From Escherichia coli (GTDB lineage Bacteria > Pseudomonadota > Gammaproteobacteria > Enterobacterales > Enterobacteriaceae), in assembly GCF_016026235.1 (NCBI RefSeq), contig NZ_CP065613.1: 64,000 nt of DNA; one strand, written 5' to 3'. Within the stretch, counting starts at the first letter, position 1; each line of letters starts with the position of its first letter. The notes beneath the pieces were generated by a model. The model was given only the letters and a program-made list of their open reading frames with translations, was not told where the DNA came from and did not search any database. Shown one piece after another: positions 47,776 through 48,476 of this stretch. A program made the position numbers and the translations under genes.

Positions 47776-48476
47776 AAAAATGTTCCCGTTCAGGCCATGA
47801 GCACAGCATTTTCGTACTGCATAAAAATACCGAAGATACCGTTTCAGTGGCAGTTAGATAATGTAACCTTCCTTCTGTTGTGATCAGTATTCTACTCATG
47901 AAATAAAATATTAAAAGAACTATTTATATTTTAGAAAGAGATGTATTCTTCCTTGCTAATATATTATAGTGAAATAAATTTTGGTATTTATAGACTTGGT
48001 GAATATGATTTTACGGTCAATAAAATACCATAATATATTGATTTATATGCATTTATTAAATTGATTAATAAGTTTTATGTATGGTTTTATCAATTAATTA
48101 ATTGCTAGCAATACATCATAAGGAATTCCTTTAAGGAATGTCTTAATTGCGTGCTGGAACGATGGCGGAGTAAGTGTCGTAATAATTTGTTTTTGACGCG
48201 GCTGTGGATTTTTATGGGGGGGAGATACGTTATGGATAATTGTGCTGTTGAAGTTGATATATTTTTAGCTTATGTGACCGTGTTCTGAAATTGACTAAAA
48301 ATATATTTAAACACCATAAAAGAGTTTTTCAGTAGGTGCTAATTACGTGTGCCTGTAACTCGAATAAAGAAAAGGGTGTGGTTCCTGATGTGAGCCGCAT
48401 CACACTCTAACCCGTCGGGGATTAACGACGGGTTGTTCGTAAAACAGCAGTTGATAATTTCACAAGGAGTTCATAA

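What the first reader, a model, noticed from the sequence alone, without database searches (positions are those of the whole stretch)
47776..48476. AT-rich 700-bp divergent control region between tssB and hcp-vgrG, with perfect palindromes
The region separating the two divergent T6SS operons is strongly AT-rich and contains perfect palindromes CAATTAATTAATTG (48091..48104) and AAGGAATTCCTT (48120..48131), plus a GATC site in TGTGATCAG near 47880. Such regions often carry silencing or regulator-binding sites (H-NS, Fur, Dam-dependent switches), but I cannot assign the sites to a factor from sequence alone.
Basis: inference. Interest (0 to 1): 0.3.

Follow-up and report, generated by a model that had tools for sequence, protein, structure and literature searches.

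The report
E. coli T6SS-2 divergent control region
The 701-bp AT-rich gap between tssB and hcp is the two-way control region of the E. coli type VI secretion island at aspV, which papers report as H-NS-silenced; the flagged palindromes vary between close strains and look incidental, while the conserved parts are a tssB promoter box and two RNA hairpins in the hcp leader.

Summary
tssB (47272-47775, -) and hcp (48477-48995, +) flank 701 bp at 33% GC, with a core of 19%. Both palindromes and the GATC are at the stated coordinates.

This is the divergent control region of E. coli T6SS-2 (aspV island, the APEC/UTI89 type), present in 552 of 5426 complete genomes. Papers report H-NS repression at this locus and its EHEC homologue, CpxR-P binding upstream of hcp, and no Fur or iron control. 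I found no Fur box and only one GATC.

The palindromes sit in the non-conserved spacer and change between alleles 98-99% identical to the window. I read them as by-products of AT-rich DNA.

Eighteen related regions in all were fetched (Escherichia, Salmonella, Citrobacter, Enterobacter, Hafnia-type and others). They keep the 622-724 bp length, and the 15 measured are 29-37% GC. Conserved elements:
- A tssB -10 box (GTAGAAT) about 113 nt from the ATG.
- A central TATAAT block about 290 nt upstream of hcp.
- Two covarying hairpins in the hcp leader that usually show GGA in a loop.
- An invariant ACAAGGAG ribosome-binding site.

This pattern fits CsrA-type translational control, already suggested for EHEC hcp3. 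A perfect CRP core (48389-48404) is specific to this allele family. The region is ordinary in kind and modestly new in detail.

The parts
47272..47775 (-). tssB (vipA), first gene of the structural operon tssBCEFG-tagH-tssJKL-clpV-vasI-tssA-tssM-vasL-hcp
   Evidence: Pfam PF05591, E=1e-44. RefSeq annotation of the 99.7%-identical locus L001.
47776..47882 (-). Predicted tssB 5' leader of about 107 nt. It holds conserved complementary blocks GCCA (47851-47848) with UGGC (47797-47794), and ACGGUA (47842-47837) with UGCUGU (47808-47803).
   Evidence: Alignment A4. RNAalifold. The pair count shows 94% of cells paired, but covariation is no better than shuffles because the blocks are nearly invariant. 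A structure here is inconclusive.
47882..47885 (.). The only GATC in the region. It falls at about -3 to +1 of the predicted tssB transcription start.
   Evidence: A GATC lies within 14 nt after the -10 box in the window, UTI89, E. whittamii, Salm_P0010, Superficieibacter, ENA_P0014 and Salm_P0016.
47889..47894 (-). Predicted tssB -10 hexamer TAGAAT, inside the conserved box GnGTA(G/A)AAT
   Evidence: GTAnnAT is invariant in 14 sequences (A4). The box lies 110-133 nt from the ATG in the 14 of 15 regions where the pattern was found. The transcription start itself is inferred, not mapped.
47912..47932 (-). Conserved CTTTTAA at the -35 position (a poor -35) with an upstream A-tract, AAAAAAG in most orthologues, that resembles an UP element
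   Evidence: A4 conserved columns. Coordinates.
47935..47950 (-). Conserved upstream box AAGAATACATCTCTTT (AAGGATACCCCTCTTT in most orthologues). It starts 55-56 bp upstream of the -10 hexamer. The binding factor is unknown.
   Evidence: A4. Found at a fixed offset in 9 of 15 regions.
47895..48177 (.). AT-rich spacer between the two back-to-back core promoters (283 bp, 24.7% GC). Its sequence is not conserved but its composition and length are. Proposed H-NS nucleation and spreading platform.
   Evidence: Alignments A2 and A5. Four of the region's six near-matches (2 mismatches) to the H-NS motif TCGATAAATT lie here.
48091..48112 (.). Perfect palindromes CAATTAATTAATTG (48091-48104) and ATTGCTAGCAAT (48101-48112)
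   Evidence: Polymorphic among E. coli alleles.
48119..48144 (.). Tandem 13-mers TAAGGAATTCCTT/TAAGGAATGTCTT.
   Evidence: A TTTAAGGAAnATCT motif recurs 34-39 bp upstream of the central -10 in EHEC and Salm_P0015. It is not an exact RcsB box.
48178..48201 (+). Degenerate copy (CGTAATAATTTGTTTTTGACGCGG) of the conserved central block TATAATAtTTATTCATGATTCAG. This is the candidate distal hcp promoter, about 275-296 nt upstream of hcp in most orthologues.
   Evidence: A5. K-mer conservation in 9 of 11 other regions. Positions. The role as a promoter is inferred.
48257..48306 (+). Perfect 12-bp inverted repeat ATATATTTTTAG / CTAAAAATATAT. It brackets the segment (48267-48292) whose removal abolished the CpxR-P shift in APEC. 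TTGACT lies at 48291-48296.
   Evidence: Primers in PMC6534853. The window reads GTGAC where APEC reads GTAAT.
48375..48401 (+). Hairpin A of the hcp leader. The conserved 7-bp core is 48378-48398. The loop is CUGAUGU here and CCGGAGU in many orthologues.
48389..48404 (.). Perfect CRP core TGTGA-N6-TCACA, overlapping the 3' half of hairpin A
   Evidence: Two matches in 64 kb against 0.06 expected. Present in all 8 E. coli loci sampled of this allele family and absent from every other fetched locus.
48408..48435 (+). Hairpin B of the hcp leader. It has 10 bp in the window (conserved 9 bp, 48409-48434) and the loop GGGAUUAA, with GGA at 48419-48421. No U-tract follows.
   Evidence: Seven of 9 pairs show compensatory changes. 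Folding gives z = -2.8. GGA is in the loop in 13 of 17 sequences.
48462..48469 (+). ACAAGGAG, the ribosome-binding site. AAGGAG is invariant in all 17 orthologues. Its GGA (48466-48468) lies 47 nt downstream of the loop-B GGA.
   Evidence: A3, A5 and A6.
48477..48995 (+). hcp (the 'hcp2B' of APEC), followed by an intrinsic terminator at 49006-49042 and then vgrG (49216-51615)

Best explanation
The 701 bp are the bidirectional regulatory region of the E. coli T6SS-2 island inserted at tRNA-aspV. I read it as three layers.

1. Two back-to-back core promoters.
- One drives tssB: a -10 TAGAAT at 47889-47894 on the - strand, a predicted start near 47882, and a leader of about 107 nt.
- One drives hcp: a conserved TATAAT block whose degenerate copy lies at 48178-48201, probably with a proximal promoter inside 48267-48476.

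2. Between the promoters lie about 280 bp of very AT-rich DNA. Its sequence drifts freely while its composition and length are kept. This tract, with the AT-rich promoters themselves, is the platform on which H-NS nucleates and spreads to silence both operons.

3. The hcp mRNA carries a structured leader. Two hairpins (A at 48375-48401, B at 48408-48435) usually display GGA in a loop, and they sit upstream of an invariant ACAAGGAG ribosome-binding site. A CsrA dimer bridging the loop GGA and the ribosome-binding-site GGA would block translation of hcp.

In this allele family a perfect CRP site has also arisen over hairpin A, which may tie hcp to cAMP.

Shown here: the anatomy, the conservation and the covariation. 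Reported in papers: H-NS repression, CpxR-P binding, absence of Fur control, and CsrA repression of the EHEC homologue. Inferred: the start sites, H-NS nucleation in the spacer, CsrA binding at these particular sites, and any CRP function.
For: Identity and context:
- Pfam hits, RefSeq annotation of a 99.7%-identical locus, tRNA-Asp at 26826, and presence in 552 of 5426 E. coli genomes.

Conserved architecture:
- Eighteen related regions in all were fetched. TssB ranges from 56% to 99% identity to the window; Hcp, compared only with EHEC, is 94% identical.
- All keep the divergent hcp/tssB layout and a gap of 622-724 bp; the 15 measured are 29-37% GC.

tssB promoter:
- GTAnnAT is invariant, at a fixed 110-133 nt from the ATG, with a conserved upstream box 55-56 bp further up.

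Central block:
- TATAATAtTTATTCATGATTCAG occurs in 9 of 11 other regions.

Leader hairpins, counted on 17 sequences:
- 91.9% of cells pair, against 84.1% in shuffles (0 of 500 reach the observed value).
- 11 of 16 pairs show compensatory changes (0 of 500 shuffles).
- Slid controls pair at only 34-47%.
- 48 cells are G.U pairs. Pairing falls to 77.5% if the same columns are read as the opposite strand, so the structure belongs to an RNA in the hcp sense.
- Covariance model R1 finds exactly one copy per island. It finds the EHEC, Hafnia-type and C. koseri loci, which were not used to build it (E from 1e-16 to 1e-19).
- No U-tract follows hairpin B, so it is not an intrinsic terminator.
- GGA is in loop B in 13 of 17 sequences and in loop A in 6 of 15. 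Sixteen of 17 have at least one.

Papers:
- H-NS: PMC5874247, PMC5363993, PMC13141884.
- In EHEC, deleting hns raises hcp3 mRNA but barely raises the protein, whereas replacing the whole region with PBAD gives Hcp3 protein. This fits a repressive native leader.
- CsrA is reported to repress hcp3 and tssC in EHEC (Wang 2017, as cited in PMC13141884).
- CpxR-P shifts the 48267-48500 equivalent in APEC.

Palindromes are polymorphic.
Against: - No transcription start has been mapped for either operon. PMC13141884 still calls the homologous EHEC promoter 'unknown', so both -10 assignments are inferences from conservation.
- The simple sigma-70 scan did not call either of them. The tssB -35 is poor. 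In the window the central block is degenerate (CGTAAT in place of TATAAT).
- H-NS binding inside the spacer has not been shown for this allele. The motif matches there may simply reflect AT content.
- GGA is a 3-mer. The window's hairpin A lacks it, and one orthologue (Salm_P0010) has none in either loop.
- The 17 sequences are related, so the shuffle control overstates independence.
- Three perfect palindromes within 41 bp occur in only 0.5% of shuffles. A TAAGGAAT-type motif also recurs at the same offset from the central -10 in EHEC and one Salmonella locus. A lineage-specific factor binding near 48119-48145 is therefore not excluded.
Confidence: 0.7

Rival explanations
1. The palindromes, or the tandem TAAGGAAT 13-mers at 48119-48144, are operator sites for a dimeric or tandem-binding transcription factor that activates or represses the hcp distal promoter. 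They lie about 34-90 bp upstream of the central -10 block.
For: - Three perfect palindromes of 12 bp or more occur in 0.5% of shuffles.
- ATTCCTTtAAGGAAT is conserved in all Escherichia alleles sampled.
- TTTAAGGAAnATCT lies 34-39 bp upstream of the central -10 in EHEC and Salm_P0015, and at the same offset in the window.
- The P0093-type E. coli allele has a 36-bp perfect palindrome centred on AAGGATATCCTT at the same relative place.
Against: - The exact palindromes change between alleles 98-99% identical to the window.
- Thirteen of the 18 intergenic regions scanned have no perfect palindrome of 12 bp or more.
- The motif is absent from most orthologues that keep the central promoter block.
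- The IGR has no exact match to the RcsB box TN(G/A)GAN4TC(T/C)NA.
- Conservation of 15 bp among alleles 92% identical is expected about 29% of the time (my arithmetic).
Confidence: 0.12
2. The region is a Fur plus Dam-methylation epigenetic switch, like the EAEC Sci-1 (T6SS-1) promoter, in which GATC sites overlap Fur boxes.
For: - One GATC (47882-47885) lies at the predicted tssB start, and a GATC recurs within 14 nt of the -10 box in about half the orthologues.
Against: - The best Fur-box match is 12 of 19, equalled or beaten by 89% of shuffles.
- There is a single GATC, against 3.3 per kb in the window overall.
- In APEC, iron limitation and fur inactivation do not change clpV2 or hcp2B (PMC5874247).
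Confidence: 0.03
3. The leader hairpins are not CsrA sites. They could stabilise the mRNA as 5'-proximal stem-loops that protect against RNase E, act as a target for a small RNA with Hfq, or form part of an attenuator or Rho-dependent termination element.
For: - Loop B is conserved beyond GGA (consensus rGGGAUUAAy), and 4 of 17 loops lack GGA.
- A conserved TA-N5-A (GAAUAaAGAAA-type) stretch just upstream of hairpin A could be a proximal -10, which would make hairpin A 5'-terminal.
- In EHEC a stem-loop downstream of hcp3 is reported to stabilise that mRNA (PMC13141884, abstract).
Against: - Sixteen of 17 leaders have a loop GGA together with the invariant ACAAGGAG, which matches the CsrA SELEX core ACA-GGA as I recall it.
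- The 47-nt spacing lies within the 10-63 nt range for dual-site binding by a CsrA dimer, also from my own knowledge.
- CsrA is reported to repress the homologous EHEC hcp3 (as cited in PMC13141884).
- No U-tract follows hairpin B, so it is not an intrinsic terminator.
Confidence: 0.25
4. In this allele family cAMP-CRP directly controls hcp through the perfect site at 48389-48404. It could activate a proximal promoter, counteract H-NS, or block the distal transcript as a roadblock.
For: - Both pentamers are perfect with the canonical 6-bp spacer. There are 2 such sites in 64 kb against 0.06 expected.
- The site is kept in all sampled alleles of the family despite 7-8% divergence.
- The system is induced in minimal medium with serum but not in LB (PMC5874247).
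- The central promoter block is degenerate in the same lineage, which fits promoter turnover.
Against: - No -10 lies at a class I or class II distance. GATAAT at 48453-48458 would put CRP near -68.5 (read from the sequence).
- The site lies inside the conserved leader, so its left half is constrained by hairpin A in any case.
- It is absent from E. whittamii (TCGCA), EHEC and all other genera.
- I found no paper linking CRP to E. coli T6SS-2.
Confidence: 0.3

Closest known systems
APEC T6SS2 vipA2/hcp2B intergenic region (strains TW-XM and DE719) and the EHEC O157 'bidirectional promoter' t6sP between tssB and hcp3
   Same: - The locus is the same (aspV island) and so is the gene order.
- The window is 91-92% identical to APEC O1 and UTI89 over the 701 bp.
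- The EHEC region is 696 bp, 33% GC, and carries the same conserved boxes and leader.
- H-NS repression, CpxR-P binding, lack of Fur control and CsrA repression of hcp3 are all reported for these loci.
   Different: - The window allele differs from APEC DE719 at the segment needed for the CpxR shift (GTGAC in place of GTAAT).
- The window carries palindromes absent from the APEC/UTI89 alleles.
- EHEC lacks the perfect CRP core.
- The papers I read do not describe the tssB -10 box, the central TATAAT block or the covarying leader hairpins. PMC13141884 notes only AGGA near the start codons.
H-NS-silenced T6SS promoters (Salmonella SPI-6; Vibrio parahaemolyticus T6SS1)
   Same: An AT-rich promoter region in a horizontally acquired T6SS island, silent in rich medium and de-repressed in hns mutants (review PMC10482370).
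   Different: The T6SS subtype and gene order differ. Here two divergent operons share one long spacer of about 700 bp whose length is conserved across genera.
EAEC Sci-1 (T6SS-1) Fur/Dam switch
   Same: An E. coli T6SS promoter upstream of tssB.
   Different: There is no Fur box, a single GATC and no iron response. The region works differently and is not a member of this kind.
CsrA/RsmA-repressed leaders (E. coli glgC; Pseudomonas aeruginosa T6SS mRNAs such as fha1 and tssA1)
   Same: A GGA in a hairpin loop upstream, together with a GGA inside the ribosome-binding site. RsmA repression of T6SS mRNAs through GGA motifs in the 5' UTR is established in Pseudomonas (PMC10482370).
   Different: Binding has not been tested here. 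The target gene is hcp in an enterobacterial V. cholerae-like cluster. The window's hairpin A has no GGA. The structure is not in Rfam.

Membership tests
H-NS-silenced xenogeneic promoter region | Markedly lower GC than the flanking genes and the host genome | tested here: met
   33.1% against 50.8%, with a core of 19%. The same holds in 15 orthologues.
H-NS-silenced xenogeneic promoter region | Lies in a horizontally acquired, variably present island | tested here: met
   The island follows tRNA-Asp at 26826. It is present in 552 of 5426 E. coli genomes. It is a mosaic relative to EHEC.
H-NS-silenced xenogeneic promoter region | De-repression in an hns mutant | not testable with these tools
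   Reported for the APEC orthologue (PMC5874247) and the EHEC homologue (PMC5363993; PMC13141884).
H-NS-silenced xenogeneic promoter region | Direct H-NS occupancy of the region | not testable with these tools
   Stated for EHEC in PMC13141884, which cites earlier work. Six matches with 2 mismatches to TCGATAAATT lie in the IGR, about 8-fold the window density, but this tracks AT content.
Fur/Dam switch (EAEC Sci-1 type) | Fur box overlapping the promoter | tested here: not met
   The best match is 12 of 19, and 89% of shuffles do as well.
Fur/Dam switch (EAEC Sci-1 type) | GATC sites inside the regulator's binding sites | tested here: not met
   One GATC only, and not within any Fur-like box.
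Fur/Dam switch (EAEC Sci-1 type) | Induction by iron limitation or fur inactivation | not testable with these tools
   Reported to be absent for APEC T6SS2 (PMC5874247).
CsrA/RsmA-regulated leader | GGA overlapping the Shine-Dalgarno sequence | tested here: met
   ACAAGGAG at 48462-48469. AAGGAG is invariant in 17 of 17.
CsrA/RsmA-regulated leader | A second GGA in the loop of a hairpin within reach of a CsrA dimer | tested here: met
   Loop B reads GGGAUUAA, with its GGA 47 nt upstream of the ribosome-binding-site GGA. The hairpin is supported by covariation. A loop GGA is present in 16 of 17 leaders.
CsrA/RsmA-regulated leader | CsrA binding and CsrA-dependent expression | not testable with these tools
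   Only indirect: CsrA represses EHEC hcp3 and tssC (Wang 2017, as cited in PMC13141884).
CRP-dependent promoter | TGTGA-N6-TCACA site | tested here: met
   Perfect core at 48389-48404.
CRP-dependent promoter | Site centred at -41.5, -61.5, -71.5 and so on from a mapped start | tested here: inconclusive
   No start is mapped. The nearest -10-like hexamer, GATAAT at 48453-48458, would put the site near -68.5.
CpxR-activated promoter (as published for APEC hcp2B) | GTAAA-N4-8-GTAAA box in the segment needed for the shift | tested here: not met
   The window has GTGAC where APEC has GTAAT. CpxR-like matches with 2 mismatches or fewer number 7, against 10.3 in shuffles, and none lies at 48267-48292.
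RcsB-regulated promoter | TN(G/A)GAN4TC(T/C)NA box (PMC7913699) | tested here: not met
   No exact match in the IGR. TAAGGAATGTCTTA matches 7 of the 8 specified positions.
sigma-54 / VasH-type T6SS promoter (V. cholerae) | TGGCAC-N5-TTGC element and a vasH activator gene in the cluster | tested here: not met
   No sigma-54 match. No vasH between clpV and vasI.
Any Rfam family | A covariance-model hit | tested here: not met
   Only noise, with E of 0.35 or more and all scores far below gathering thresholds.

The most novel reading that the evidence does not exclude
The two covarying hairpins and the invariant ACAAGGAG upstream of hcp form a previously undescribed, genus-spanning cis-regulatory RNA leader of enterobacterial V. 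cholerae-like T6SS clusters, with no match in Rfam. Through it CsrA gates production of the Hcp tube protein after transcription. This would explain why removing H-NS raises mRNA but not protein. In the APEC/UPEC allele family the DNA that encodes hairpin A has additionally evolved into a perfect CRP site, so the same 30 bp would carry carbon-status control at both the DNA and the RNA level.
Probability: 0.25. Interest if true: 0.5.

Novelty: new member of a known kind. Interest (0 to 1): 0.3.

Why it matters
T6SS-2 of E. coli (APEC, UPEC, NMEC, EHEC) is silent in the laboratory. A 2026 study still calls its promoter 'unknown' and reports that deleting hns raises mRNA but not protein.

A conservation map makes that problem testable. 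It places the likely tssB start, a candidate hcp promoter and a structured, GGA-bearing hcp leader. It says which bases to mutate and which to ignore: the palindromes.

Nothing here overturns current views. This is a known kind of H-NS-silenced island promoter, with a probable CsrA layer of a kind already known in Pseudomonas.

Tried and rejected
- Rfam scan of 47400-48900 at E up to 10 gave only noise.
- The simple sigma-70 and terminator scan gave 6 promoter-like sites against 4.2 expected. None coincides with a conserved block, and no terminator lies in the IGR.
- Fur box, sigma-54 and CpxR-box scans were no better than shuffles.
- The RcsB box has no exact match in the IGR.
- Small ORFs (45 aa at 48151-48288; 30 aa from 47941) are not conserved. 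E. coli alleles differ by 1-2-nt indels and orthologues lack the start codons.
- Hairpin B as an intrinsic terminator is rejected because no U-tract follows it in any orthologue.
- A structure in the tssB leader is compatible with the alignment but has no covariation above shuffles, so it is left as inconclusive.
- The genome-contig scan with TssB returned only 3 loci. Orthologues were obtained instead through the protein search and contig look-ups.
- The metagenome scan with ACAAGGAGN{6,9}ATGCCNAC was unspecific. Only 1 of the 80 loci made readable (an EHEC-like contig) carries the leader.
- A blastn 'distant' search found no E. coli alleles beyond the 552 found by megablast. The EHEC and P0093-type alleles are too diverged at the DNA level.
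Full report
**What is there.**
- The window is E. coli chromosome: metNI-gmhB, rrnH, tRNA-Asp (aspV) at 26826, and then a T6SS island.
- tssB (47272-47775, - strand; PF05591) heads tssC, tssE and the rest of the structural operon. hcp (48477-48995, +) and vgrG (49216-51615, +) run the other way.
- RefSeq annotation of a 99.7%-identical locus gives the order tssBCEFG-tagH-tssJKL-clpV-vasI-tssA-tssM-vasL-hcp on one side and hcp-vgrG-effectors on the other. There is no vasH.
- This is the 'T6SS2' of APEC, UTI89 and APEC O1. The 701-bp spacer occurs in 552 of 5426 complete E. coli genomes at 90-99.7% identity. Nothing was annotated under it in the records listed.

**Check of the observation.**
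- Every stated feature is at the stated place.
- GC is 33% against 51% for the window, falling to 19% around 47900-48100.
- Besides the two palindromes there is a third, ATTGCTAGCAAT (48101-48112), and a tandem 13-mer pair at 48119-48144.
- In dinucleotide-preserving shuffles a palindrome of 12 bp or more appears in 30% of trials and one of 14 bp or more in 9%. Three or more of 12 bp or more appear in 0.5%.
- The exact palindromes are unstable between close alleles:
  - CAATTAATTAATTG is broken in the alleles about 98% identical and in those 90-95% identical.
  - AAGGAATTCCTT reads AAGAAATTCCTT in the 90-95% group and in E. whittamii.
  - Thirteen of the 18 intergenic regions scanned have no palindrome of that size.
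- Only the odd palindrome ATTCCTTtAAGGAAT (48125-48139) is shared by all Escherichia alleles sampled.
- There is one GATC, fewer than the window average would give.

**Comparative anatomy.** I collected related regions in three ways: a TssB genome scan, a protein search followed by contig look-ups, and EHEC Sakai by accession. Eighteen related regions were fetched in all: seven further E. coli alleles of the window's own type, E. whittamii, Pseudocitrobacter, three Salmonella types, S. houtenae, Superficieibacter, Buttiauxella, Enterobacter, C. koseri, a Hafnia-type contig, two unnamed contigs, a second E. coli type and EHEC. They share these properties:
- All have hcp and tssB divergent across 622-724 bp.
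- The 15 measured are 29-37% GC, against flanks of 44-55%.
- Most of the sequence does not align (mean column identity 59% in A2), but four islands of conservation stand out.

1. **tssB side (A4).**
   - GnGTA(G/A)AAT lies 110-133 nt from the ATG in the 14 of 15 regions where the pattern was found. In the window this is TAGAAT at 47889-47894 on the - strand.
   - It is preceded by CTTTTAA at the -35 position and by an A-tract.
   - A box AAGGATACCCCTCTTT starts 55-56 bp upstream of the -10 hexamer (window 47935-47950).
   - I read this as the tssB core promoter, with a weak -35 and probably dependent on an UP element or an activator. The start would be near 47882 and the leader about 107 nt.
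   - The leader holds conserved complementary blocks, but their covariation does not exceed shuffles.
2. **Centre (A5).**
   - TATAATAtTTATTCATGATTCAG lies about 258-296 nt upstream of hcp in most orthologues, including EHEC (TACAAT).
   - In the window's allele family it is degenerate: CGTAATAATTTGTTTTTGACGCGG at 48178-48201.
   - I read it as a distal hcp promoter.
- The two -10 elements face away from each other across about 283 bp at 24.7% GC.
3. **The hcp leader (A3 and A6).**
   - Two hairpins are present, A (48375-48401) and B (48408-48435).
   - On 17 sequences, 91.9% of cells pair, against 84.1% in shuffles (0 of 500 reach that value).
   - Eleven of 16 pairs show compensatory changes (0 of 500 shuffles). 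Slid controls pair at 34-47% (for 14 sequences).
   - Forty-eight cells are G.U pairs. Pairing drops to 77.5% if the columns are read as the opposite strand, so the structure is in an RNA of hcp sense.
   - No U-tract follows B, so it is not an intrinsic terminator.
   - The window leader folds with z = -2.8.
   - A covariance model finds one copy per island, and only upstream of this hcp. It recovers EHEC, the Hafnia-type locus and C. koseri, none of which was used to build it.
   - Rfam has nothing similar.
4. **The ribosome-binding site.** AAGGAG is invariant in all 17 leaders and ACAAGGAG is nearly so (48462-48469).

**GGA motifs.**
- Loop B reads GGGAUUAA in the window, and GGA is in that loop in 13 of 17 leaders.
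- Loop A reads CCGGAGU in six leaders but CUGAUGU in the window.
- Sixteen of 17 leaders have at least one loop GGA.
- In the window the loop-B GGA lies 47 nt upstream of the ribosome-binding-site GGA.
- This is the arrangement of CsrA/RsmA-repressed leaders. The dual-site model and the ACA-GGA SELEX core come from my own knowledge. RsmA control of Pseudomonas T6SS mRNAs is covered in PMC10482370.

**What the papers say about this locus.**
- APEC TW-XM: hns inactivation raises clpV2, hcp2A and hcp2B. Iron and Fur have no effect. Minimal medium with serum induces the system (PMC5874247).
- APEC DE719: CpxR-P shifts a fragment equal to window 48267-48500. The shift is lost when the first 25 bp or so are removed (PMC6534853). 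The window differs exactly there, with GTGAC in place of GTAAT.
- EHEC: hns deletion raises the homologous hcp 60-fold (PMC5363993).
- A 2026 study on EHEC (PMC13141884) reports the following:
  - It calls the region an 'unknown bidirectional promoter'.
  - It states that H-NS is bound there.
  - It shows that hns deletion raises mRNA but hardly raises protein, whereas swapping the whole region for PBAD gives Hcp3 protein.
  - It cites CsrA repression of hcp3 and tssC, and notes only AGGA motifs near start codons.
- The EHEC region (696 bp) carries all four conserved islands. EHEC TssB is only 56% identical to the window's, while Hcp is 94% identical.

**CRP.**
- TGTGAGCCGCATCACA (48389-48404) is a perfect CRP core. 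There are two such sites in 64 kb against 0.06 expected.
- It is kept in all eight sampled alleles of this family and absent elsewhere.
- Its left half lies inside hairpin A, so it looks like a lineage-specific addition built on a constrained sequence.
- No -10 lies at a canonical distance, so its function is open.

**Conclusion.** The region is the H-NS-silenced bidirectional control region of T6SS-2.
- A Dam switch is probably wrong as well.
- The palindromes are best explained as products of AT-rich, low-complexity DNA. The residual caveat is that a TAAGGAAT-type motif recurs at the same offset from the central -10 in EHEC and one Salmonella locus.
- The most useful new result is the conserved map: the tssB -10 and upstream box, the central -10 block, and a covariation-supported, GGA-bearing hcp leader. 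This leader gives a concrete post-transcriptional explanation for why de-silencing alone does not yield Hcp protein.
- Start sites, H-NS nucleation in the spacer, CsrA binding and CRP function are all inferences that need the experiments listed.

Noticed in passing
window 13177-13192: The only other perfect CRP core in the window, TGTGAATCACTTCACA, lies in the stretch carrying metN, gmhB and the start of the rrnH 16S gene.
   Followed up: no
window 49006-49042: A strong intrinsic terminator (ACAACATCCTGC-CTTCG-GCAGGATGTTGT followed by TTTTTGT) lies just after hcp, in the 220-bp hcp-vgrG spacer. It appears to be the counterpart of 'region I' of the EHEC h3R element described in PMC13141884. If so, hcp would be largely monocistronic and vgrG would depend on read-through or on its own promoter.
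   Followed up: partly
L019:1818-2500 (a second E. coli T6SS-2 allele type, found in 29 genomes): A 36-bp perfect palindrome, TTTGATAAAAATAAGGATATCCTTATTTTTATCAAA, lies at IGR position 342. This is the same relative place as the window's AAGGAATTCCTT, and it is centred on AAGGA-TA-TCCTT.
   Followed up: partly
L020 (EHEC Sakai) against the window: Hcp is 163 of 172 identical between EHEC and the window, but TssB is only 94 of 167 identical. The two arms of the island therefore have different histories, which points to a recombination mosaic with a breakpoint in or near the intergenic region.
   Followed up: no
L009:2288-6030 (E. coli SCU-176): An IS1A-flanked orphan copy of hcp and a truncated vgrG keeps only the last 142 bp of the intergenic region: the CRP core, hairpins A and B, and the ribosome-binding site. 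It is a natural construct lacking the spacer and the distal promoter.
   Followed up: no
L004 (285-bp contig labelled Moellerella wisconsensis): The contig is nearly identical to the E. coli tssB 5' end and leader. This looks like contamination or a very recent transfer.
   Followed up: no
window 48257-48268 and 48295-48306: A perfect 12-bp inverted repeat (ATATATTTTTAG / CTAAAAATATAT, 26 nt apart) brackets the segment needed for the published CpxR-P shift. It is kept at 11 of 12 positions in E. whittamii.
   Followed up: no
window 51500-53000: GC falls to 28-38% immediately after the vgrG core, across the region expected to hold effector and immunity genes. This is typical of variable T6SS cargo.
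   Followed up: no
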